44,418 nucleotides of DNA, from the sequence record PX502252.1. One strand, 5' to 3'. The stretch is from a phage. The position numbers were made by a program, and so were the translations under genes. A model generated the notes under the pieces. The model was not told the DNA's origin. It did no database searches and worked only from the letters and a program-made list of their open reading frames with translations. Below are positions 30,016 through 44,350 of this stretch, piece by piece; position 1 is the stretch's first letter; each line of letters opens with the position of its first letter.

Positions 30016-30298
30016 ACATGCAGCCACAGAGGATGAAGTAGGCATCCTGCATGGCGCTATTACGAAGATGTTTAATAAGAAAGCAAAGGCTATACTGGAC
30101 ACTATAGAAGCAGACCCTGATTCTGCTATGCACCTAGTGTCAGGTAAAGATATTGGAGCCATGTGTAAATGGGTTTTAGATAATGGCATTACTGCCACCC
30201 CTGCTGCACAGCAGGAGGAGTCCAAGTTATCTAAGCGCCTCAAGGCTATCCGAGAGGCGTCCAGTGGCAAGATCATTCAGTTCACTAAGGAGGATTGA
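29999..30298 (+). CDS. Terminase small subunit (start uncertain)
   Basis: Immediately upstream of large terminase with stop/start overlap; GTG 29999 has GGAGGA 6 nt upstream; ORF track extends to 29954. Confidence 0.55.
   Translation: MSVHNKHAATEDEVGILHGAITKMFNKKAKAILDTIEADPDSAMHLVSGKDIGAMCKWVLDNGITATPAAQQEESKLSKRLKAIREASSGKIIQFTKED
30091..30113 (+). promoter_or_regulatory. SP6-type phage promoter embedded in small terminase gene (TATACTGGACACTATAGAAGCAG)
   Basis: Core ACTGGACACTATAGAAG exact; in-frame encodes ILDTIEA. Confidence 0.55.
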
Positions 30299-32193
30299 TG
30301 GCTAAGGCAAGAGAATCACAAGCGGAGGCTCTTGCCAGATGGGAGATGCTACACGAGTTACAGCAGACCTTCCCTTATACCGCAGAAGGTTTGCTTCTCT
30401 TTGCTGATACAGTTATTCATAATTTAATTGCAGGTAGCCCTCATCTGATTCGTATGCAGGCAGACATCTTGAAATTCCTATTCTATGGACACAAGTATCG
30501 CCTCATCGAAGCGCCCCGTGGTATCGCTAAAACTACGCTGGCAGCAATCTATACGGTATTCCGTATCATTCATGAACCTCATAAGCGTATCATGGTTGTA
30601 TCACAAAACGCCAAGCGAGCAGAGGAAATCGCAGGTTGGGTTGTCAAAATCTTCCGAGGATTGGACTTCCTAGAGTTTATGCTGCCAGACATTTACGCTG
30701 GCGACCGTGCATCAGTTAAGGCATTCGAGATTCACTATACACTGCGTGGAAGCGACAAGTCTCCTTCTGTATCCTGCTACTCTATTGAAGCAGGTATGCA
30801 GGGTGCTCGTGCAGACATCATTCTAGCAGATGACGTTGAATCTATGCAGAATGCGCGTACCGCAGCAGGTCGTGCATTGCTTGAGGAATTAACCAAGGAG
30901 TTTGAATCTATCAACCAGTTTGGTGATATTATCTACCTTGGTACACCACAGAATGTGAACTCTATTTACAACAACCTTCCTGCACGCGGTTATTCTGTTC
31001 GTATCTGGACTGCTCGTTACCCTTCGGTAGAGCAAGAGCAATGTTATGGTGACTTCCTTGCACCTATGATCGTGCAGGATATGAAGGACAACCCAGCATT
31101 GCGAACAGGTTATGGTTTGGATGGCAACAGTGGCGCTCCTTGTGCACCTGAAATGTATGATGATGATGTCTTGATTGAGAAGGAAATCTCACAAGGTGCT
31201 GCTAAGTTCCAACTTCAGTTCATGCTTAACACTCGCATGATGGATGCTGACAGATACCCATTACGCCTGAACACTCTAATCTTCACCTCGTTTGGTACAG
31301 AGGAAGTCCCTGTGATGCCTACGTGGAGCAATGATTCCATAAACATCATTGGTGATGCACCTAAGTATGGTAACAAGCCTACAGATTTCATGTACAGACC
31401 TGTGGCACGTCCATACGAATGGGGTGCTGTTACACGCAAGATTATGTATATCGACCCAGCTGGTGGCGGTAAGAACGGGGATGAGACTGGCGTAGCCATC
31501 GTATTCCTGCACGGCACATTCATTTATGTATATCAGTGCTTTGGTGTGCCGGGCGGATACCGAGAATCGTCCCTGAATCGCATTGTGCAGGCCGCAAAGC
31601 AGGCGGGTGTTAAAGAGGTATTCATTGAGAAAAACTTTGGTCATGGTGCGTTTGAGGCTGTTATAAAGCCATACTTTGAAAGGGAGTGGCCTGTGACTAT
31701 CGAAGAAGACTACGCCACTGGTCAAAAAGAACTCCGTATCATCGAGACATTAGAGCCGCTGATGACCGCGCATAGACTTATCTTCAATGCTGAGATGGTC
31801 AAGTCGGATTTCGCTTCAGTACAGAATTACCCTCTGGAATTGCGGATGTCTTATAGTTTGTTCCACCAAATGTCGAACATCACTATTGAGAAGAACAGCC
31901 TCCGGCATGATGACCGCTTAGACGCTCTGTATGGCGCTGTGCGTCAATTAACTTCTCAGATAGACTATGACGAGGTTACTCGTATTAATCGCCTCAGAGC
32001 GCAGGAGATGCGCGATTATATACAGGCGATGAACACACCTAAACTTCGTCGGGCTATGCTGTACGGAGACTATGGTGATGAGCGAAGAACAACCAACACA
32101 TCCTTGGCAATGCAGCAGAGAGTTTACGGGCAGAATTGGAGGAACCGCTCAGGCTCTAGAAATACACTTTCCTCAAGGATTTCAAGGATTTAG
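30298..32193 (+). CDS. Terminase large subunit, T7 gp19-like
   Basis: Walker A-like PRGIAKTT, Walker B ADIILADDVE; 632 aa. Confidence 0.92.
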   Translation: MAKARESQAEALARWEMLHELQQTFPYTAEGLLLFADTVIHNLIAGSPHLIRMQADILKFLFYGHKYRLIEAPRGIAKTTLAAIYTVFRIIHEPHKRIMVVSQNAKRAEEIAGWVVKIFRGLDFLEFMLPDIYAGDRASVKAFEIHYTLRGSDKSPSVSCYSIEAGMQGARADIILADDVESMQNARTAAGRALLEELTKEFESINQFGDIIYLGTPQNVNSIYNNLPARGYSVRIWTARYPSVEQEQCYGDFLAPMIVQDMKDNPALRTGYGLDGNSGAPCAPEMYDDDVLIEKEISQGAAKFQLQFMLNTRMMDADRYPLRLNTLIFTSFGTEEVPVMPTWSNDSINIIGDAPKYGNKPTDFMYRPVARPYEWGAVTRKIMYIDPAGGGKNGDETGVAIVFLHGTFIYVYQCFGVPGGYRESSLNRIVQAAKQAGVKEVFIEKNFGHGAFEAVIKPYFEREWPVTIEEDYATGQKELRIIETLEPLMTAHRLIFNAEMVKSDFASVQNYPLELRMSYSLFHQMSNITIEKNSLRHDDRLDALYGAVRQLTSQIDYDEVTRINRLRAQEMRDYIQAMNTPKLRRAMLYGDYGDERRTTNTSLAMQQRVYGQNWRNRSGSRNTLSSRISRI

Positions 32194-32937: not shown

Positions 32938-33627
32938 ATGCTGGGAGTAACAGGACAACGCAATAAGAATGTAGCCACCAAAGTAGTGGCTGATTTAGCT
33001 ACTGCTGCTACTGTCGAGGAATTACGAGATCAACATAGCTCTATTAACCGTGCTGACCTTTCTGGTAAACAAGAAGGTTCCGCTGTTATTGTTAAGAAAG
33101 AAGATGGGAATTATTCTATCTTTGTAGCAACAGGAAGCAAGCCGACTGATGTGTGGAAAGAGTTGTCTCCAACAATACCAGAGCAAGAGATGCCTGCTGA
33201 ATATATTGATATGATTGATGTTCAAATTCATCAAGATTCTGCAAGCAACTTACGCATAGACTCTTCTCGCACTAGTTTAATACAAACACCAATGTGGGAT
33301 ACTGAAGGTGAGTTGTTATTCCGTAATACACTAAGTGCAACATGTTCTTGTACTATTCTTGTTGATGGTGCGTCTGGTGTTCGTCAGGATTTTACTTTTA
33401 AGATTAATGGACTTTTAGAGCAGGAAGAGCAGTATTATGATATTGACACACTTATGTGCTCTATTCACTCTGCAACAGCAACTAATGGCCTTACCTTGTG
33501 TATGCCAGATGCTAAAAGTGCAAAGACTAATAAAATGGTAGTTAAGATCGACACTATGCAGTCATTAGCTATGAGCTTTGATCTTAACTTCCTTGTAGAA
33601 TGGACGTCACCAACGAGGTTACTATAA
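32938..33627 (+). CDS. Paralog-family protein 3 (229 aa), conserved N-terminal domain plus C-terminal extension
   Basis: INRADLSGKQEGSAVIV...IFVATGSKPTDVW then about 140 aa unique region. Confidence 0.7.
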   Translation: MLGVTGQRNKNVATKVVADLATAATVEELRDQHSSINRADLSGKQEGSAVIVKKEDGNYSIFVATGSKPTDVWKELSPTIPEQEMPAEYIDMIDVQIHQDSASNLRIDSSRTSLIQTPMWDTEGELLFRNTLSATCSCTILVDGASGVRQDFTFKINGLLEQEEQYYDIDTLMCSIHSATATNGLTLCMPDAKSAKTNKMVVKIDTMQSLAMSFDLNFLVEWTSPTRLL

Positions 33628-33971
33628 TGCTAAATCAATACTTCAAGCGTAAAGAGTTTGCTTGCCGTTGTGGGTGCGGCACATCTACTGTTGATGCTGA
33701 GTTACTACAGGTAATCACAGATGTGCGTGAGCACTTTGGTTCTCCTGTAGTTATCACTTCTGGGCATCGCTGTGCTAAGCACAATGCTAATGTAGGGGGA
33801 GCTAAAAACTCCATGCATCTTACTGGTAAGGCTGCTGACATTAAGGTACGAGGCATCTTACCATCTGAAGTGCATAAGTATCTTACTGATAAGTACCAAG
33901 GCAAATATGGGATTGGTAAGTACAACTCCTTCACCCATATTGATGTACGGGATGGGTGTGCACGATGGTAG
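33627..33971 (+). CDS. Endolysin, zinc peptidase M15 family (L-alanyl-D-glutamate / D-Ala-D-Ala peptidase type)
   Basis: SGHRCAKHNANVGGAKNSMHLTGKAADI and FTHIDVR motifs (His/Asp zinc ligands of M15); start ATG 33627 with GAGG upstream (alternative 33600). Confidence 0.8.
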   Translation: MLNQYFKRKEFACRCGCGTSTVDAELLQVITDVREHFGSPVVITSGHRCAKHNANVGGAKNSMHLTGKAADIKVRGILPSEVHKYLTDKYQGKYGIGKYNSFTHIDVRDGCARW

Positions 33972-34516: not shown

Positions 34517-34545
34517 TACATAGCTTTATGTATCAGTGTCTTACG

Positions 34546-34568
34546 ATTTACTGGACACTATAGAAGAG
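34546..34568 (+). promoter_or_regulatory. SP6-type phage promoter (ATTTACTGGACACTATAGAAGAG) upstream of receptor-binding protein genes
   Basis: Full consensus match; ORF track's 34536 start runs through it, so true CDS start is downstream. Confidence 0.8.
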
Positions 34569-34646
34569 ATAAATAGTGCCGTTCATTTGAGCGGCCTATT
34601 ACTAGCCAATCTTCATAGGGAGGGTTGGAAAGTAATAGGAGACAAT

Positions 34647-35714
34647 ATGGCTAAACTTACTAAAGTCTTCCAAGGCAGGGATGGTAAAGGTCAAGAGGAC
34701 TTTTATACCGGAGGTGGATGGAGCGGAGCCGATGGTGAGTCCGGTAGTATTTATAAAACTGTAGGCTCTCCACAAGAGAGTGCATCTAGGTGGAGATTTT
34801 CATTAAAAGAAAATGAACTAGTAGAAGAGCCTACCATCTGGTTAAATAAACGAACCAAAGTGTCTAGAAGTGATGGCATTAAAAGGTGGGATGCTGGCAA
34901 TTTATATTGCGGCCTAGATAAGATAGAAGGAGATGCATATGCTGCATCTTTAACTGGTGCAGCAAGACACCTAGGTGGGGAAGGGGATGTGATAGGTGTG
35001 CACGGAAGAGGTTGTGCCTATCATGGAAAAGCAAAAGTATGGGGTGGGTGGTTTTACGCTGCATCCAGAGTAGATAGCGAAGTTGTTGCAGGAGAAGCAC
35101 CTATTGATATGATAGGTGTTGAAATAAACTTAAACCATAAAAGAGAGGACATCTCTTGGACACCAGCAGAGGGTAAAGGCTTATACCGAGGCCTTGTAGT
35201 CACTACGGCAGATGGTGGAAAAAGATGCCATATAGGTATAGATGTTGGAGCACAAACCAGTAATAAATCAGAACCTTGGTATGTAGGGCTACGCATAAGA
35301 AAGGACAGCATAGTTCCTTTCAATGATGAAAGAGAAGGTAATGCGGCATCTGCAATATTAATAGAAGGCTCTACTCTACAATCCAAGGCGTATGGTGGTT
35401 TATCATTTAAGAATGGAACCCTAGCATATGGTATAGATTTTACAGGTATAGCTTTGATTGACAACCAAGCTGCATTGGTAATGAAAGATGACCATAGGAT
35501 CCGTTGGGGTTCAAGGGTGTCATCTAGATACATCTCAGGCAACAGTGTAACTGGTCAAGTAAATTTCAATAACTATGCAATTGCAGTAAATGGCAATAAA
35601 GTTATTGGAGAGCAACAACAAGCCATAAGTAATGCATCACAAGGTACAGAGGTTGATACTATAAATAATATCTTAGAAGCCCTAAGATCTCACGGACTAA
35701 TTAAGAGAGGTTAA
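34647..35714 (+). CDS. Putative tail fibre / receptor-binding protein 1 (355 aa), function unassigned
   Basis: TAGGAGA SD before ATG 34647; Gly-rich; located in the tailspike module; no confident domain call. Confidence 0.55.
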   Translation: MAKLTKVFQGRDGKGQEDFYTGGGWSGADGESGSIYKTVGSPQESASRWRFSLKENELVEEPTIWLNKRTKVSRSDGIKRWDAGNLYCGLDKIEGDAYAASLTGAARHLGGEGDVIGVHGRGCAYHGKAKVWGGWFYAASRVDSEVVAGEAPIDMIGVEINLNHKREDISWTPAEGKGLYRGLVVTTADGGKRCHIGIDVGAQTSNKSEPWYVGLRIRKDSIVPFNDEREGNAASAILIEGSTLQSKAYGGLSFKNGTLAYGIDFTGIALIDNQAALVMKDDHRIRWGSRVSSRYISGNSVTGQVNFNNYAIAVNGNKVIGEQQQAISNASQGTEVDTINNILEALRSHGLIKRG

Positions 35715-35718
35715 TATT

Positions 35719-35862
35719 ATGAAGGAAGAAGTTATTAAAAATATCTTAAAGTTTATGAGTCGAGTTGAATTACATGGGTATGAAGTTCCTGCTTTTGTTA
35801 TTTGTATGGACTCGCTTGAAGCTATGCTTCTATCAAGCAATGAAGACAAAGCGGATGTTTAA
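35719..35862 (+). CDS. Small protein (47 aa) between the two receptor-binding genes
   Basis: ATG 4 nt after upstream stop, GAGAGG upstream; followed by hairpin terminator; below ORF-track cutoff. Confidence 0.35.
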   Translation: MKEEVIKNILKFMSRVELHGYEVPAFVICMDSLEAMLLSSNEDKADV

Positions 35863-35868
35863 ACAGTG

Positions 35869-35890
35869 GCAGTGCGTAAGCACTGCTTTT
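35869..35890 (+). terminator. Hairpin GCAGTGC-GTAA-GCACTGC followed by TTTT
   Basis: Perfect 7-bp stem, GNRA-like tetraloop, T-tract. Confidence 0.55.
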
Positions 35891-35946
35891 CACGCAACTT
35901 TTCTTAAAGGTTATCATGGTGGTAGCCTTTCAGAAAAGGAGGGTAC

Positions 35947-37605
35947 ATGCTGCAACGATTAAGTGCTTCCTTAGTGAAGTACAAGAGCAAGCTCATAGGA
36001 GCTACCTATAGGTTGCTTGGTGATAAACTTTTAGAGCTAAATAGTGTATCAGATTTTGGTGCAATACCTAATCTTGAAACAGATAGTACTAACTCCATTC
36101 AAGCTGCAATTGATGCGACCCCGTCTGGTGGTACTCTAGGCTTCTATGGTGGGCCTTATAGATTTGGTACTGTTACAGTGGATAAACCAATTACACTAGT
36201 TGGAGATGCAGATTTGCAGTTTGAGTGCATTCGTATCAAGACAAGTAAGTTTCGTAGTTTCTTGACAGGAACACTAACTGCTGCAAGATACGACAGTGCA
36301 TGTCGTGCATTTCAAATCTTAGCCTATGAAGATGGGGAAGATTATGAGGACATCAAGGTACATGGTGCACGTTTCGAGGGTTTCTTCTATAACACAGACT
36401 TCCGAGGCCGTTCTTACGATGCGTCAGAAAGTGATCCCGCTAACAGAGTGGTTCGGGATACCTCCATTATGGGTTGTACTTCAGTTCAACCTAAAGATGG
36501 TAAAGACAGAGGGCACTTTCAACACGTAGGTGTTACCAATGCCAAGTGCATAGGTAACTCAACGTATGGTGGTAAGAATGCTACTTCTTATAACTTCATT
36601 AATGGTAATGGCTCTTTGGTGGTTATTGGTAATTATGACCATGACAATGAATACGGCTCCTTAGAGATTGAGAATAACAAGATAAGCTATGGTGTGGTTA
36701 CTGGTAATATCTTCCATAAACAACTATGGATAGATGATACTAGCAATATTAATGTAATAGGTAACACCTGTACAGATAGGATTTACATTACTGCACAATC
36801 TAACAACTCTGAGAACGTATCAGTAGTGGGGAATAATGTACCACGCATCTACGTCAGTAAGTTTGGTCAAAGCCCAACAGGGCGTCACCGTAACTTGACT
36901 ATACGTGGTAATCATATCACTGGCAAGGATGTTCCTAACTGTATCTTCTTAGATGATTCTGTTGATTCCGCTTCTATTGAAGGTAATGATTGTTATGGTG
37001 TGTCTGGTGTTAAAGGCATAGCCATTACTCGTCATGCAGATGCTAACCATACAGTGCGTCATAATAACTTACATGGCACTAACTTACTCTTTAGTGGTTC
37101 GGGCGGAAAAGTTTATAGTTATGACAACTTTGATGTTGGAGTTGATGAATCCCCTGTGGCAGACAGAACTGACGCAGTGCACATTGACAACCTTCTTCGT
37201 GTAAATGATGAGTACCTTGATTTGCCAGGAAAGTACCTATACAAATCTAAGTATACAAGAGACATTACACAAGGTGGCTCAACCACTATTGAGTTACCTG
37301 TAACCACAAGTGGTTCTTTGGCTTTTCGTGGTATTAGTTTATGGGTTCTTATCCGTAACACTTCTACGGGGAACTTGTCTTCTTATCGTGTAGATGGAAG
37401 ACATGCAGTAAGTGGTTCTTCTGTGACTGTTAGCTTTGGAGAGAAGTATGGGGTATTAGGAGTGAATACTGGTGATGTTACTGTTAGTAATGATGCCTCT
37501 ACGACTACTCTTATTCGTATCAAGGTAAGCAATGAGCATGTAAGTCAGACAATGCAGGTTACAGTTGTACCAGAGGTAACAAGCAGATTAGGGACTGAAG
37601 AGTAA
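35947..37605 (+). CDS. Tailspike with pectate-lyase-like right-handed beta-helix (polysaccharide depolymerase)
   Basis: AAAGGAGGG SD; N-terminal VSDFGAIPN...TDSTNSIQAAIDATPSGGTL...TLVGD typical of beta-helix depolymerase start; repeated GN-containing rungs (VIGNYD, VIGNTC, VVGNNV, IRGNHI, IEGNDC). Confidence 0.8.
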   Translation: MLQRLSASLVKYKSKLIGATYRLLGDKLLELNSVSDFGAIPNLETDSTNSIQAAIDATPSGGTLGFYGGPYRFGTVTVDKPITLVGDADLQFECIRIKTSKFRSFLTGTLTAARYDSACRAFQILAYEDGEDYEDIKVHGARFEGFFYNTDFRGRSYDASESDPANRVVRDTSIMGCTSVQPKDGKDRGHFQHVGVTNAKCIGNSTYGGKNATSYNFINGNGSLVVIGNYDHDNEYGSLEIENNKISYGVVTGNIFHKQLWIDDTSNINVIGNTCTDRIYITAQSNNSENVSVVGNNVPRIYVSKFGQSPTGRHRNLTIRGNHITGKDVPNCIFLDDSVDSASIEGNDCYGVSGVKGIAITRHADANHTVRHNNLHGTNLLFSGSGGKVYSYDNFDVGVDESPVADRTDAVHIDNLLRVNDEYLDLPGKYLYKSKYTRDITQGGSTTIELPVTTSGSLAFRGISLWVLIRNTSTGNLSSYRVDGRHAVSGSSVTVSFGEKYGVLGVNTGDVTVSNDASTTTLIRIKVSNEHVSQTMQVTVVPEVTSRLGTEE

Positions 37606-37754
37606 TGCCATTAATCAAATCAGTTAAGCAAAGTGCTGTACGCCAGAACACAGAAGAACTTATTCAATCAGGACGTGACCCTAAGCAGGCTTATGCCATT
37701 GCCAAGGATGTACAACGTCGTGCAATGAAGAAACCTTCTGCATCTTCTGCGTAA
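37605..37754 (+). CDS. Small basic protein (49 aa), translationally coupled to tailspike
   Basis: ATG overlaps tailspike TAA (TAATG); MPLIKSVKQSAVRQNTEELIQSGRDPKQAYAIAKDVQRRAMKKPSASSA. Confidence 0.4.
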   Translation: MPLIKSVKQSAVRQNTEELIQSGRDPKQAYAIAKDVQRRAMKKPSASSA

Positions 37755-37893
37755 GCAGGTTAATATCTTAGTTTACACAAGGACAGACCTATGATAGCTC
37801 ACAGCACACCCCTGAGTGCCGCTCTGGATTCTATGAATTGTTCCCTGACTATCTAGGTTTGCTCTTAGTGTATTCCAAAGGAGGTCACATGTA

Positions 37894-38154
37894 ATGTTGG
37901 TTGTATCTAGTAAGAAGAAGCAGAGTGAAATGGATAAGATAGTTCAGACTGGCCTTGCTGCTAAGTCTGGTCAACCTCTTAATACTGGAACTGGTTCAAT
38001 TGACAAGATTGTTGAAACAGGCAAACAGGCCATGTCTGTTGGGTTGGACAAGAGTGAAAGGAAGCAGGCTGAGTTCAATAAGATCATTGAGTTCGGTAAG
38101 GAAGCTAAGAGGAAGTTCTTAAGGCCGTCTGCGGTAGAACCAGTAAGACACTAG
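37894..38154 (+). CDS. Small protein (86 aa) with three internal [DN]KI[VI][QE]xG repeats
   Basis: AAGGAGG SD; repeats DKIVQTG, DKIVETG, NKIIEFG; last gene before repeat-dense terminal region. Confidence 0.5.
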   Translation: MLVVSSKKKQSEMDKIVQTGLAAKSGQPLNTGTGSIDKIVETGKQAMSVGLDKSERKQAEFNKIIEFGKEAKRKFLRPSAVEPVRH

Positions 38155-38159
38155 GAAAC

Positions 38160-38900
38160 ATCTTAGTGTTGTACAAGGAATAACCAAAGTCAAAATTTTG
38201 ATGTAGGCGTGTGTGAGGTGTCTCGCCCTCGCCCTCGCCGGGATGTCCCCATAGGGTGGCCTGAGGGAATCCGTCTCCGACGGGCAGGGCTGATGCACTC
38301 CTTGTACTAGCTTAGTAGTACACAAGGGATGACCGTACTAGTTAGCTGGTACAGCCTAGTCTTTGCTCATGTACTAGCAAGGTGGAACGCCGGAGAACGC
38401 CTAGGACGGCCTAGGGATGGCTTAGTGGTGGACAAGGTGATTGCCTTAGTGAAGCCTCTTAGTGCATTCCTGAGGCTATTCAGGGCCATTCCTGAGCGTT
38501 TGACAGGGTGGGCGTGGGTGGGCTATCTGTTCGTTTCGTCGCTGGCGCTCCTCACTTCGTTTCGCCTAGCGCTCCACTCACAAGCCTGACGTGTACCTTA
38601 GTCACTACCTTAGGTTGTTCCTTGATGGATAGCTTAGGTTAACCTTAGTGGATTGCCTTAGTTAAAGCCTTAGTGCTTCACTTAGTATCAGCTTAGTAGT
38701 GTACCTTAGTCAGTCTTAGTGTTAGACCTTAGTGACTACATAGCTACGCTATAAGATGCAAATAGGTCGCGGTCGGTAGACCGCTAATAAGAAGTAATAG
38801 TAATAAGATGCAGTAGGAGGAACACCAGAAACCTAGTCAGCCTAGCCTATCCTAGCTCTGTATCTATTGCGTTTCCTTAGTCTCACATGTTAGACAACCT
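38160..38900. repeat. Non-coding, repeat-dense genome-terminus region (GC-rich block then array of about 11 CTTAGT/CCTTAGT units); probable site of terminal repeat/concatemer junction
   Basis: CTCGCC x3, TACTAG x3, ATTCCTGAG x2, TTCGTTTCG x2, then CTTAGT repeats every 10-14 bp (38590-38750); no SD-led ORFs; analogous to T7 terminal-repeat heptamer arrays. Confidence 0.6.
38880..38895. promoter_or_regulatory. Palindrome variant GTCTCACATGTTAGAC (site 7, one mismatch)
   Basis: 15/16 match to the recurrent palindrome. Confidence 0.5.
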
Positions 38901-38962
38901 AGGTTTATCATAGTAGTTGTGACATGTATCACATAAATAATCTATCTTAGTGAAACTTAGTG

Positions 38963-38991
38963 TTGACACAGGCAATCAACAGGTATACATT
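38963..38991 (+). promoter_or_regulatory. Candidate host sigma70 early promoter (TTGACA - 17 bp - TACATT)
   Basis: Perfect -35 hexamer, 17-bp spacer, -10 with 3/6 match; positioned at start of early region. Confidence 0.4.
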
Positions 38992-39212
38992 AGCAATCAC
39001 TGAGGCGGACCTAGCAAGCTGCCTCAGGTTATAAGCAGGAGAATTGATGCGTAAGCCGTAGCTAGCGGATGTAGTCGCATGAAGGCTTGAGTAAGGGGCC
39101 GTTTAATACCTTCTTCTTCTGGAGACAAAGCTTATAATACCGCTCTTTAACAATTTGCTTAGTGTAACCTATGTATGCCGTGGTTAATTACTTATTGAAT
39201 GAGGTATTAACT

Positions 39213-39290
39213 ATGGGTAAGTTCCTTGCTGGTTTCATCCTTGCCACTGCTATCTTTGATAATGCAGCATTGGCTCTGGGTTTGTATTAA
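39213..39290 (+). CDS. Tiny hydrophobic peptide (25 aa)
   Basis: GAGG 8 nt upstream; MGKFLAGFILATAIFDNAALALGLY. Confidence 0.3.
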   Translation: MGKFLAGFILATAIFDNAALALGLY

Positions 39291-39311
39291 TAGACACAAG
39301 AGGGATTAACT

Positions 39312-39422
39312 ATGAGTTTAGCGACAACGAGTTACGAAGAATTATATGAAACCTACTACAACGCATTGGATGAAGGAGAAGAAGCATTATCCTTTGCTGA
39401 GTTTATGGAGGCTTTATCATGA
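39312..39422 (+). CDS. Small acidic early protein (36 aa)
   Basis: AGAGGGA SD; stop overlaps next start (ATGA). Confidence 0.4.
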   Translation: MSLATTSYEELYETYYNALDEGEEALSFAEFMEALS

Positions 39423-39601
39423 TTCTGAATAACCGTGAACTATCCGTTCTCTTCACCTTGTTATGCTATCTGATATATAGAAATGAGTCACTCAGTGATG
39501 ATGAGTTGTCTTTGTATCACCGCTTTCTTAACGATGGTTGGGTGGATACATTAAACCAGAAACGTGACTTGATGAAGGAGCTAACCAATGTATCAGCATG
39601 A
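39419..39601 (+). CDS. Early hypothetical protein (60 aa)
   Basis: ATGA-coupled to upstream ORF. Confidence 0.5.
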   Translation: MILNNRELSVLFTLLCYLIYRNESLSDDELSLYHRFLNDGWVDTLNQKRDLMKELTNVSA

Positions 39602-41722: not shown

Positions 41723-44350
41723 ATGCAAGATTTACACGCTATCCAGCTTCAGCTTGAAGAGGAAATGTTTAACGGCGGTATTCGTCGCTTTGAAGCAGAC
41801 CAACAACGCCAGATTGCATCAGGTAATGAATCCGATACGGCATGGAATCGTCGCCTATTGTCGGAACTTATCGCACCTATGGCTGAAGGTATTCAGGCTT
41901 ATAAGGAAACCTACGAAGGCAAGAAAGGACGCGCACCGCGTGCACTGGCTTTCATTAACTGCGTAGAGAACGAAGTGGCAGCATATATCACGATGAAGAT
42001 CGTAATGGATATGCTTAACACTGATGTAACCTTGCAAGCCATAGCAATGAATGTAGCTGATCGCATCGAAGACCAAGTACGCTTCAGCAAGCTGGAAGGT
42101 CACGCCGCCAAATACTTTGAGAAAGTAAAGAAGTCGCTTAAGGCAAGTAAGACTAAATCATATCGCCATGCGCACAACGTAGCGGTGGTGGCTGAGAAGT
42201 CAGTAGCTGACCGTGACTCTGATTTCTCTCGCTGGGAAGCATGGCCTAAAGATACCTTGCTACAAATCGGTATGACCTTGCTAGAAATACTGGAGAATAG
42301 TGTATTCTTCAATGGTCATCCTGTTTTCCTCCGCACCTTGCGCACTAATGGTGGTAAGCATGGTGTTTACTACTTACAGACCAGTGAACATGTAGGGAAA
42401 TGGATTACAGCATTCAAAGAACATGTAGCGCAACTAAGCCCAGCGTATGCACCTTGCGTTATACCTCCACGTCCGTGGGTTTCTCCTTTTAATGGTGGAT
42501 TTCACACTGAGAAGGTGGCAAGCCGCATCCGTCTAGTTAAAGGAAACCGCGAGCACGTCCGCAAGTTAACCAAAAAGCAGATGCCAGCGGTTTACAAGGC
42601 TGTTAACGCTTTGCAGGAGACTAAATGGCAGGTTAATAAAGAAGTCTTGCAGGTAGTAGAAGACGTTATCCGTCTCGACCTTGGCTATGGTGTACCTTCA
42701 TTTAAACCACTCATCGACCGCGAGAATAAGCCAGCTAACCCAGTGCCGTTAGAATTCCAGCACTTGCGAGGCCGTGAGTTGAAAGAAATGTTAACGCCGG
42801 AACAATGGCAAGCCTTCATTAACTGGAAAGGTGAATGTACCAAGCTGTATACCGCAGAGACTAAGCGCGGCAGCAAGTCGGCGGCAACCGTTCGCATGGT
42901 AGGGCAGGCCCGTAAATACAGCCAGTTTGACGCTATTTATTTTGTATATGCACTGGATAGCCGTTCACGCGTTTATGCGCAATCTAGCACGCTCTCACCG
43001 CAATCAAACGACTTAGGCAAGGCGCTCCTACGGTTTACCGAAGGGCAGACTATAAACAGCGCTGAGGCGCTTAAGTGGTTTTTGGTGAACGGGGCGAATA
43101 ACTGGGGTTGGGATAAGAAAACCTTTGACGTGCGCACCGCTAACGTGTTGGATGGTGAATTCCAAGACATGTGCCGCGATATTGCAGCCGACCCGCTGAC
43201 CTTTACTCAATGGGTAAATGCTGATTCTCCTTACGGTTTCCTTGCATGGTGCTTTGAATACGCGCGTTATCTAGATGCGCTGGATGAAGGCACGCAAGAC
43301 CAATTCATGACGCACCTACCAGTACACCAAGATGGTAGCTGTTCCGGCATCCAGCACTACAGCGCTATGCTACGCGACGAAGTCGGTGCTAAGGCGGTAA
43401 ACCTTAAACCATCCAACGAGCCGCAAGACATTTATGGCGCGGTTGCTCAGGTTGTTATCCAGAAGAATTACGCCTACATGAATGCAGATGATGCGGAAAC
43501 TTTCACATCTGGAAGTGTAACCCTTACAGGTGCAGAACTGCGCAGCATGGCTAACGCGTGGGATATGATTGGGATCACTCGCGGCCTGACCAAGAAACCC
43601 GTTATGACCCTGCCATACGGCTCCACACGCTTAACCTGCCGTGAATCGGTGATTGATTATATCGTTGATTTGGAAGAAAAAGAGGCACAACGAGCTATCG
43701 CCGAAGGGCGGACGGCGAATCCTGTGCACCCTTTTGATAATGACCGTAAAGACTACCTGACACCGGGCGCGGCATATAACTATATGACTGCTCTCATCTG
43801 GCCTTCCATCTCTGAGGTTGTGAAAGCTCCGATAGTTGCCATGAAAATGATTCGCCAGCTTGCACGTTTCGCAGCTAAGAGGAACGAAGGATTAGAATAC
43901 CCCTTACCGACTGGCTTCATCTTGCAACAAAAGATAATGGCAACCGATATGCTTCGCGTATCCACTTGCTTGATGGGTGAAATCAAGATGAGTCTCCAGA
44001 TTGAAACAGATGTAGTTGATGAAACGGCAATGATGGGTGCGGCTGCTCCTAACTTCGTGCACGGTCATGATGCTAGCCACCTGATTCTGACTGTATGTGA
44101 CCTAGTGGATAAAGGTATTACATCCATTGCAGTCATCCATGATTCTTTCGGCACTCATGCAGGACGTACCGCAGACCTGCGGGATAGCTTAAGGGCAGAA
44201 ATGGTTAAGATGTATCAAGACCATAATGCCTTGCAAAACCTGCTGGATGTGCACGAAGAACGTTGGTTAGTAGATACCGGAATCCAAGTACCAGAGCAAG
44301 GAGAGTTTGACCTTAACGAAATCTTAGTATCTGACTATTGCTTCGCATAA
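41723..44350 (+). CDS. Single-subunit DNA-directed RNA polymerase, SP6-type
   Basis: 875 aa; N-terminus [32 protein letters not shown] and long stretches match SP6 RNAP as I recall it; motifs [14 protein letters not shown] and VHDSFGTH; cognate promoters throughout genome. Confidence 0.97.

What the first reader, a model, noticed from the sequence alone, without database searches (positions are those of the whole stretch)
37894..38154. Last gene before the terminus encodes a protein with three tandem [DN]KI[VI][QE]xG repeats
DKIVQTG, DKIVETG and NKIIEFG recur at roughly 24-aa spacing in an 86-aa protein. Internal repeats in a terminal small protein are unusual and may indicate a nucleic-acid or protein-binding module.
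Basis: seen in the sequence. Interest (0 to 1): 0.4.

Follow-up and report, generated by a model that had tools for sequence, protein, structure and literature searches.

The report
Small repeat protein, phage accessory gene
The last gene before the end of this K1-5-like phage genome is real and encodes an 86-residue basic protein made of three similar helices; it occurs in only a few close relatives, matches nothing known, and looks like an ordinary optional phage gene of unknown role.

Summary
ORF 37894-38154 (+) encodes 86 aa with DKIVQTG, DKIVETG and NKIIEFG at residues 14, 37 and 62. None of 5000 shuffles reaches this repeat score, and profile comparison extends the unit to about 17 aa.

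The window is a permuted Vectrevirus genome (K1-5/SP6 group). K1-5's left end maps to 38223, so this is the last gene before the terminal repeat.

The gene is real:
- dN/dS is 0.11-0.36 at dS 0.36-0.70.
- Every copy has a Shine-Dalgarno site.
- The repeat cores and the C-terminal tail RPSAVEPVRH are invariant or nearly so (at least 90% conserved) in 21 intact orthologues.

It is also optional. It is present in 3 of 146 related phage records, 22 clusters among 5.8 billion proteins, and no bacterial genome. It sits in a slot that other phages fill with different small genes. It has no match in Pfam, PHROGs, NCBIfam, PADLOC or PDB.

AlphaFold predicts three helices, one repeat each, with no confident packing.

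Function is not established. My best guess, at low confidence, is a late, non-enzymatic binder of another protein. Interest is low.

The parts
37864..37891 (+). Shared leader CTCTTAGTGTATTCCAAAGGAGGTCACATG, with the Shine-Dalgarno GGAGG at 37880-37884. The same leader precedes K1-5 gene 49 and the 51-aa gene of CrRp3, so it marks the left joint of the cassette.
   Evidence: K1-5 1686-1723 aligns to window 37854-37891 at 92% and similarity stops at the ATG. Leaders are compared.
37889..37894 (+). One-codon ORF ATG TAA, left from the leader's original start codon. Its last A is the first base of the real ATG (ATGTAATG).
   Evidence: Read directly from the sequence.
37894..38154 (+). Coding sequence of the 86-aa protein: 9.4 kDa, pI 9.9, net charge +7, no Cys, Trp or Tyr, no membrane-spanning segment.
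   Evidence: ORF list. dN/dS 0.11-0.36 over 21 pairs. Variable sites by codon position 24/19/46. Composition. 21 intact orthologues.
37927..37965 (+). Repeat 1 (aa 12-24, EMDKIVQTGLAAK), in the middle of predicted helix 1 (aa 6-24).
   Evidence: repeat; helices; K15, V17, Q18, T19, G20, L21 invariant.
37996..38034 (+). Repeat 2 (aa 35-47, SIDKIVETGKQAM), in predicted helix 2 (aa 33/36-48).
   Evidence: I39, V40, E41, T42, G43, Q45 invariant.
38071..38109 (+). Repeat 3 (aa 60-72, EFNKIIEFGKEAK), in predicted helix 3 (aa 55-75). This is the most amphipathic and best-predicted segment.
   Evidence: hydrophobic moment 0.69 at aa 61-78; N62-G68 invariant.
38116..38151 (+). C-terminal tail FLRPSAVEPVRH (aa 75-86). 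It is invariant or nearly so (at least 90% conserved), contains prolines and is mostly predicted non-helical (its first residue, F75, ends helix 3). It is a candidate docking peptide.
   Evidence: Conservation. Synonymous changes inside it. Non-helical from aa 76 in both models, and pLDDT below 50 at aa 79-83 in the alignment-based model.
38170..38222 (.). Conserved non-coding block between the gene and the terminal repeat, containing the palindrome TCAAAATTTTGA (38190-38201). It marks the right joint of the cassette and is a probable cis element for genome-end processing. It is not part of the protein.
   Evidence: K1-5 1836-1975 aligns to window 38170-38310. The same block follows the gene in NIC06P3 and L006, and follows the 51-aa gene in CrRp3.

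Best explanation
The ORF is a genuine but optional late gene of a K1-5-like phage (genus Vectrevirus). It sits in a swappable cassette slot between the last tailspike gene and the terminal repeat.

Its product is a small basic protein with no recognisable catalytic domain. It consists of three similar amphipathic helices joined by flexible Gly/Ser/Thr/Pro linkers. Each helix carries the unit [KR]KQxE[MF][DN]KI[VI][QE]xG[KL]xA[KM]. The protein ends in a tail, RPSAVEPVRH, that is invariant or nearly so.

In a helix, the conserved I, V/I, G and A residues (positions i, i+1, i+4, i+7) fall on one face. That face is small and hydrophobic, which suits tight helix-to-helix packing.

I infer that the protein acts by stoichiometric binding to another protein, of the phage or of the host. 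The helices would fold on, or pack against, the partner, and the C-terminal tail would act as a docking peptide. Three repeats would give multivalent contact, for example with an oligomeric target.

Shown: the gene is real, the repeats are selected, it is positioned to be transcribed late with the tailspike genes (inferred from promoter positions), it is dispensable across the genus, and it is helical. Inferred: that it binds a protein, and how.
For: Real gene:
- dN/dS is 0.11-0.36 with dS 0.36-0.70 in all 21 pairs of 7 sequences, and third codon positions vary most.
- A GGAGG site lies 5-9 nt upstream of the start in every copy, even though the leaders differ.
- The length is kept at 83-87 aa in 21 clusters.

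Repeats are protein-level modules:
- The repeat cores are invariant across orthologues.
- The DNA of the three units differs mostly at third codon positions: only 4-8 of 16 third positions are identical.

Helical, with no stable fold predicted:
- Both AlphaFold runs give the same three helices, with pTM 0.27-0.30.
- The model matches its own CrRp3 orthologue at only TM 0.31.
- 62% of residues are disorder-promoting types (my tally from the composition).

Conserved non-helical tail with synonymous changes inside it.

No enzyme, DNA-binding or defence-related family matches.

Late expression: the last phage-type promoter (TTACTGGACACTATAG) on the + strand is at 34548, upstream of the tailspike genes. 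No closer one and no terminator were found.

Optional cassette:
- The gene is present in 3 of 146 related records.
- The slot holds K1-5 gp49 (42 aa, with a hydrophobic C-terminal stretch), a 51-aa protein or an HNH endonuclease in other phages.
- The gene occurs next to at least three different tailspike types.
Against: There is no direct evidence for any partner or any binding. Net charge +7 and conserved Lys/Arg fit nucleic-acid binding equally well. AlphaFold confidence is low (pLDDT 58-67), so even the helix boundaries are provisional. The family is shallow (at least 78% identity), so conservation discriminates weakly between positions. One copy is frameshifted (P0022), which fits a dispensable or even decaying gene.
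Confidence: 0.4

Rival explanations
1. It is a nucleic-acid-binding protein. The basic helices bind DNA or RNA without sequence specificity, or bind the nearby genome end or concatemer junction, and so assist end processing or packaging, or protect the ends.
For: pI 9.9 and net charge +7. Lys/Arg residues K7, K15, R56, K57, K63, R73 and R85 are invariant. The gene lies 68 nt from the terminal repeat and next to a conserved palindrome. It is positioned for late expression, when packaging happens.
Against: No match to any DNA- or RNA-binding family, including helix-hairpin-helix models, at E up to 1. 143 of 146 related phages have homologous ends but lack the gene, so it cannot be needed for end processing. 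Proximity to the end is explained by the cassette slot.
Confidence: 0.2
2. It is a minor virion-associated or ejected protein. It would resemble the small basic T7 proteins gp6.7 and gp7.3 (recalled from the literature, not tested here), or be an accessory bound to the trimeric tailspikes encoded just upstream.
For: It lies in the same late transcription unit as the two tailspike genes. It is small, basic and flexible. Three repeats could match a threefold partner (inference only).
Against: It occurs with unrelated tailspike types (Peptidase_S74-type, GDSL-type, beta-helix) and is absent from most phages with the same virion architecture. No virion proteome data were found.
Confidence: 0.12
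3. It is a peripheral membrane protein. The amphipathic helices would lie on the inner membrane and modulate lysis timing or superinfection exclusion, as the neighbouring small late genes might.
For: Helices 2 and 3 are amphipathic, with hydrophobic moment up to 0.69. The alternative occupant of the slot, K1-5 gp49, has a long hydrophobic C-terminal stretch and looks like a membrane protein. The lysis genes lie a few kb upstream.
Against: Helix 1 has almost no hydrophobic moment (0.06-0.27). The hydrophobic faces are narrow and rich in Gly and Ala. The protein has no Trp or Tyr and is strongly hydrophilic overall (GRAVY -0.61).
Confidence: 0.1
4. It is not a functional protein. The ORF would be incidental, with the amino-acid repeats reflecting DNA repeats that have a cis role near the genome end, or a gene in another frame.
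For: The terminal region is full of short DNA repeats (CTTAGT). The +1 frame stays open for about 55 codons in most copies. One copy is frameshifted.
Against: dN/dS is well below 1 with substantial dS. The most variable position is the third of the annotated frame, which is the second position of the +1 frame. The +1 frame is interrupted in L012. The three units are poorly conserved at the DNA level (22-30 of 48 nt). Rfam finds nothing.
Confidence: 0.03

Closest known systems
Citrobacter phage vB_CroP_CrRp3 cds8 (AUV59370.1, UniProt A0A2K9VAW9), annotated 'hypothetical protein'
   Same: Orthologue: 78% identity over the full length, all three repeats and the C-terminal tail present, same slot after the last tailspike gene.
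   Different: 84 aa, with a GTG start and its own leader. It is followed by a 51-aa gene before the terminal repeat. No function is assigned in the record, and searches of the paper's text for relevant terms found no functional information on it.
K1-5 gene 49 and the widespread 51-aa last gene (CC1 FCJLANJD_00031, CrRp3 cds7)
   Same: They occupy the same slot between gene 48 or the tailspike gene and the terminal repeat. They are small, have no assigned function and share the same leader sequence.
   Different: There is no sequence similarity. K1-5 gp49 is 42 aa with a hydrophobic C-terminal stretch. The 51-aa protein is found in 480 phage records. Neither has internal repeats.
Designed helical repeat protein RPB_PLP3_R6 (PDB 7ue2)
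   Same: It is the only PDB sequence hit (E = 5e-4, 23 bits, six weak stretches). It shares Lys/Glu-rich helices containing D-x-I-V-E.
   Different: It is an artificial protein. The match reflects composition and periodicity, with each stretch scoring 11 bits or less. Foldseek against the PDB returns nothing. It is not a relative.
Helix-hairpin-helix (HhH) DNA-binding motif
   Same: It is superficially similar: a hydrophobic pair, then Gly, then Ala a few residues later, within a unit of about 20 aa that can be repeated (my recollection of the consensus hxxhxGhGxxxAxxhh).
   Different: The second glycine of the G-h-G hairpin is missing in all three units, and no Pfam HhH model matches at E up to 1.

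Membership tests
The 86-aa Vectrevirus family itself (CrRp3 cds8-like; unnamed) | Full-length similarity with the three repeat cores and the RPSAVEPVRH tail | tested here: met
   21 intact members at 78-99% identity, E from 1e-32 to 1e-45.
The 86-aa Vectrevirus family itself (CrRp3 cds8-like; unnamed) | Location after the last tailspike gene and before the terminal repeat of a ~44-kb K1-5-like genome | tested here: met
   Same position in the window, NIC06P3, CrRp3 and the four protein look-ups that returned loci L006-L013.
Any Pfam, PHROG, NCBIfam or PADLOC family | Profile match above the curated or usual threshold | tested here: not met
   No Pfam or PHROG hit at E up to 1. The only NCBIfam hit is HrpD6 at 13.7 bits against a cut-off of 100. 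No PADLOC hit.
Helix-hairpin-helix motif proteins | G-h-G hairpin between two helices, and a match to the HhH profiles | tested here: not met
   The motifs read TGL, TGK and FGK, each with one Gly. No Pfam hit.
T7-group last-gene family (the 51-aa protein) | Sequence similarity to the 51-aa protein | tested here: not met
   The two genes sit side by side as distinct genes in CrRp3 and L008. The tblastn hit sets do not coincide: 3 records against 480.
Solved or predicted structural families | Significant fold match | tested here: inconclusive
   Foldseek gives no hit in the PDB, and only the protein's own orthologue in BFVD. The model is of low confidence (pLDDT 58), so a negative result is weak.

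The most novel reading that the evidence does not exclude
The protein is a single-chain, three-repeat binder, with one helix per subunit, for a homotrimeric partner. That partner could be the conserved N-terminal part of the tailspikes encoded just upstream, or a trimeric host protein. A second reading is that it is a young gene born inside this phage lineage by triplication of a roughly 24-aa helix-coding unit in the recombination-prone terminal region. Both readings fit the absence of any relative in 5.8 billion proteins and 185,579 bacterial and archaeal genomes.
Probability: 0.08. Interest if true: 0.5.

Novelty: new member of a known kind. Interest (0 to 1): 0.2.

Why it matters
The practical value is modest. 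The work turns an unannotated ORF into a defined, selected protein family that is restricted to one lineage, with a clear repeat architecture and a candidate docking tail. It also shows that the right end of K1-5-like genomes is a cassette slot with shared joints.

These phages are used against capsulated E. coli, Klebsiella, Salmonella and Citrobacter. Optional late genes in this slot could affect host range or yield. If a partner were found, the 17-aa unit would be a compact new binding motif. As it stands, this is one more small phage protein of unknown function.

Tried and rejected
- **Family searches.** Pfam, PHROGs, NCBIfam and PADLOC gave nothing usable.
- **Exhaustive phmmer over 1.84 billion representatives.** The only hits outside the family's own members (P0003, P0022) was P0023 (381 aa, E = 9e-4). 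It is a long helical repeat protein and I judge it a compositional match.
- **Profile search with 22 orthologues.** It added no new member at E up to 1 among 3827 candidates.
- **Collection scans.** IMG/VR gave 3 loci, one of them CrRp3 itself. The scan of 185,579 bacterial and archaeal genomes gave none, so a host origin is not detectable.
- **PDB profile search.** It returned only a designed repeat protein, interferon gamma and uL15 at weak scores.
- **Foldseek.** It found nothing beyond the protein's own orthologue.
- **Paralogue or donor inside the window.** None was found.
- **Rfam on 37000-39600.** No match.
- **A promoter directly upstream, like T7's right-end promoter.** None was found within 3 mismatches of the phage consensus.
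- **The 32-aa ORF after the gene in L010 and L012 as a remnant of the Sem1 HNH endonuclease.** No similarity.
- **Overlapping +1-frame ORF (37955-38122).** Rejected on its substitution pattern and its interruption in L012.
- **Composition.** GC content is ordinary: 0.433 against 0.448 for the genome.
- **Literature.** The CrRp3 paper says nothing on this gene, and a second search was uninformative.
- **Exact-sequence look-up of the window protein.** It is not on record.

Full report
**What the window is.** The 875-aa ORF at 41723-44350 is a single-subunit RNA polymerase (the equivalent gene in related loci carries Pfam RPOL_N and RNA_pol). The region around the finding matches 146 phage records, mostly Escherichia, Klebsiella and Salmonella phages. 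The best matches are classified in the genus Vectrevirus (K1-5 group, Molineuxvirinae). The window is one permuted genome length. Base 1 of the K1-5 record aligns to window 38223, and K1-5's 234-bp direct terminal repeat aligns to about 38223-38525, with about 85 extra bp at 38311-38394.

The gene order before the finding is as follows:
- large terminase (30295-32193)
- endolysin (33600-33971)
- small membrane and lysis-type ORFs
- two tailspike genes (34536-35714 and 35947-37605)
- a 49-aa protein (37605-37754, PHROG 2423, K1-5 gene 48)
- the ORF in question

**The observation.** ORF 37894-38154 (+) encodes 86 aa. DKIVQTG, DKIVETG and NKIIEFG start at residues 14, 37 and 62. No shuffle of 5000 reaches the observed pair or triple similarity for word lengths 7, 10 or 13. 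Profiles of the three units, built from 22 orthologues, align to each other with E = 1.8e-6, 2.1e-5 and 3.7e-4. Units 1 and 3 match over 17 columns (KKQSEMDKIVQTGLAAK against RKQAEFNKIIEFGKEAK). The motif occurs nowhere else in the six-frame translation of the window. The stop codon is 68 nt before the inferred start of the terminal repeat, so 'last gene before the terminus' is right.

**Is it a gene?** Yes, on four grounds.
- The 5.8-billion-protein collection holds 22 clusters. 21 are intact, 83-86 aa long and 78-99% identical, and most are represented on contigs of roughly genome length (about 42-46 kb).
- Codon alignments of seven copies give dN/dS of 0.11-0.36 with dS of 0.36-0.70 in every pair. 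Variable sites by codon position are 24, 19 and 46.
- Synonymous changes run through the repeat cores and through the conserved C-terminal tail. The constraint is therefore on the protein, not on the DNA near the genome end.
- Each copy has a GGAGG-type ribosome-binding site 5-9 nt before its start, although the leaders differ.

The +1-frame ORF nested inside it (37955-38122) is a by-product. Its second codon position would be the most variable one, and the frame is interrupted in L012. Rfam finds nothing in 37000-39600. GC content is ordinary.

**Where it sits and how it got there.** Only 3 of the 146 related phage records encode it: Vectrevirus NIC06P3 and the two records of Citrobacter phage CrRp3, where it is cds8, 'hypothetical protein'. 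IMG/VR holds 3 loci. A scan of one genome for each of 185,579 bacterial and archaeal species finds none.

Wherever I could look, the gene lies after the last tailspike gene and before the terminal repeat. It sits next to tailspikes of at least three unrelated types, and the 49-aa gene 48 may or may not lie between them. In other phages the same slot holds other genes:
- K1-5 gene 49, 42 aa with a hydrophobic C-terminal stretch, found in 19 records
- a 51-aa protein found in 480 records
- an HNH endonuclease in the Sem phages
- a further 32-aa ORF downstream of the gene in L010 and L012

In CrRp3 and L008 the 84/86-aa gene and the 51-aa gene sit side by side.

Similarity to K1-5 stops exactly at the ATG of the shared leader (window 37854-37891) and resumes at 38170. 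The gene is therefore a cassette with defined joints. At the left joint the inherited start codon is followed by TAA, and the real ATG overlaps that stop (ATGTAATG, 37889-37896). Leaders of the form CTTAGTGT...AAGGAGGT precede the different cassettes, and CTTAGT is strongly concentrated around the genome end. I read these as likely recombination joints; this is an inference.

**Expression.** Phage-type promoters (consensus TTACTGGACACTATAG) are found at 16 or so places on the + strand. The last one before the gene is at 34548, and no closer match exists within three mismatches. No intrinsic terminator-like site lies in 35500-39600. The gene is therefore most likely co-transcribed late with the tailspike genes. 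This is inferred from the sequence and not measured. In T7-type phages the right end enters the cell last (established knowledge of T7), which argues against an early anti-restriction role.

**The protein.** It is 9.4 kDa with pI 9.9 and 17 Lys+Arg against 10 Asp+Glu. It has no Cys, Trp or Tyr, GRAVY is -0.61, and there is no membrane-spanning segment. Two AlphaFold runs, one with the 23-sequence alignment and one with the single sequence, give the same three helices (6-24, 33/36-48, 55-75), each centred on one repeat. Mean pLDDT is 58 and 67 and pTM is 0.27-0.30, so the helices are plausible but no packing is predicted. The model superposes on the BFVD model of its own orthologue at only TM 0.31.

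Invariant columns cluster in the repeat cores (K15, V17-L21; I39-G43; N62-G68) and in the tail (P78, A80, E82-H86). The linkers (aa 24-36 and 48-55) vary. In a helix the conserved I, V/I, G and A of each unit fall on one face (i, i+1, i+4, i+7). This small hydrophobic stripe is typical of close helix-helix contacts (inference from helix geometry). Helix 3 is clearly amphipathic (moment 0.69), helix 2 moderately so, and helix 1 hardly at all.

**Comparison with what is known.** Nothing matches.
- No Pfam or PHROG family hits at E up to 1.
- The only NCBIfam hit is HrpD6 at 13.7 bits against a cut-off of 100.
- PADLOC gives no hit.
- The exhaustive phmmer search finds, apart from the family's own members, one marginal long helical repeat protein.
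- The profile search adds nothing.
- The PDB profile search finds a designed repeat protein at 23 bits.
- Foldseek gives no PDB hit.
- A helix-hairpin-helix reading fails because the second glycine is missing and no profile matches.

The closest known things are its own unannotated orthologue in CrRp3 and the positional analogues K1-5 gene 49 and the 51-aa last gene. None has a known function.

**Most likely mechanism.** With high confidence (about 0.9), this is a real, selected but dispensable late accessory gene encoding a three-helix repeat protein. With low confidence (about 0.4), I favour a binding protein without catalytic activity of its own. Its repeated helices would pack on a protein partner, and its conserved proline-containing tail would dock it. 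Four features point that way: conserved hydrophobic faces, variable flexible linkers, a conserved non-helical terminus, and no recognisable catalytic domain.

The rivals are nucleic-acid binding (0.2), a minor virion or tailspike-associated protein (0.12) and peripheral membrane action (0.1).
- Nucleic-acid binding is favoured by the charge and the location. It is weakened because almost all relatives with the same genome ends lack the gene.
- A non-functional ORF is essentially excluded (0.03).

**Verdict.** The gene is a rare cassette in a variable slot and belongs to the very large class of small phage proteins of unknown function. It is a new, undescribed family with an unremarkable profile, so interest is low. 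It would rise only if a partner or a phenotype were found.

Noticed in passing
window 37767-39158: 22 of the 32 + strand copies of CTTAGT in the whole 44.4-kb window lie in this 1.4-kb stretch around the terminal repeat, many in tandem-like arrays (38597-38735). A longer form, CTTAGTGT...ACAAGGA or ...AAGGAGGT, precedes each small right-end gene and is shared between unrelated cassettes. This is probably this group's counterpart of the short repeat arrays near T7 genome ends, and a likely recombination joint.
   Followed up: partly
window 38170-38222 (palindrome 38190-38201): A non-coding block ending just before the terminal repeat contains the perfect palindrome TCAAAATTTTGA. The block is conserved in K1-5, CrRp3, NIC06P3 and a metagenomic relative, whatever gene lies upstream. 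It is a candidate cis element for concatemer processing or packaging.
   Followed up: partly
window 37889-37896: ATGTAATG: the start codon inherited with the shared leader is followed at once by TAA, and the real start of the 86-aa gene overlaps that stop. This marks a recombination joint placed exactly at a start codon.
   Followed up: partly
window 38311-38394: About 85 bp inside the region homologous to K1-5's 234-bp terminal repeat have no counterpart in K1-5. Part of it is shared with CrRp3. The terminal repeat of this phage is therefore probably longer (about 300 bp) or differently bounded.
   Followed up: no
protein P0022 (contig of 44,832 bp, the same length as the Raoultella phage vB_Ro_P3a record): This is a frameshifted copy of the gene. 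It is identical in sense up to about residue 45 and then continues in the +1 frame, giving 75 aa. It is either a sequencing error or decay of a dispensable gene.
   Followed up: no
L003 1788-1943 (CrRp3 cds7); L001 2785-2940 (CC1): The 51-aa protein that follows the gene in CrRp3 and L008, and replaces it in CC1, is found in 480 phage records across Escherichia, Klebsiella, Salmonella, Citrobacter and other phages. It is missing from the window, although its leader is retained.
   Followed up: partly
window 34536-34563: The last phage-type promoter (TTACTGGACACTATAG, 34548-34563) lies inside the mechanically called GTG start region of the first tailspike ORF. The true start of that gene is probably further downstream.
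   Followed up: no
L014 1356-1730 (Escherichia phage vB_Eco_Sem1): A 124-aa HNH homing endonuclease occupies the same post-gene-48 slot in the Sem phages. A mobile endonuclease may therefore contribute to turnover of this region.
   Followed up: partly
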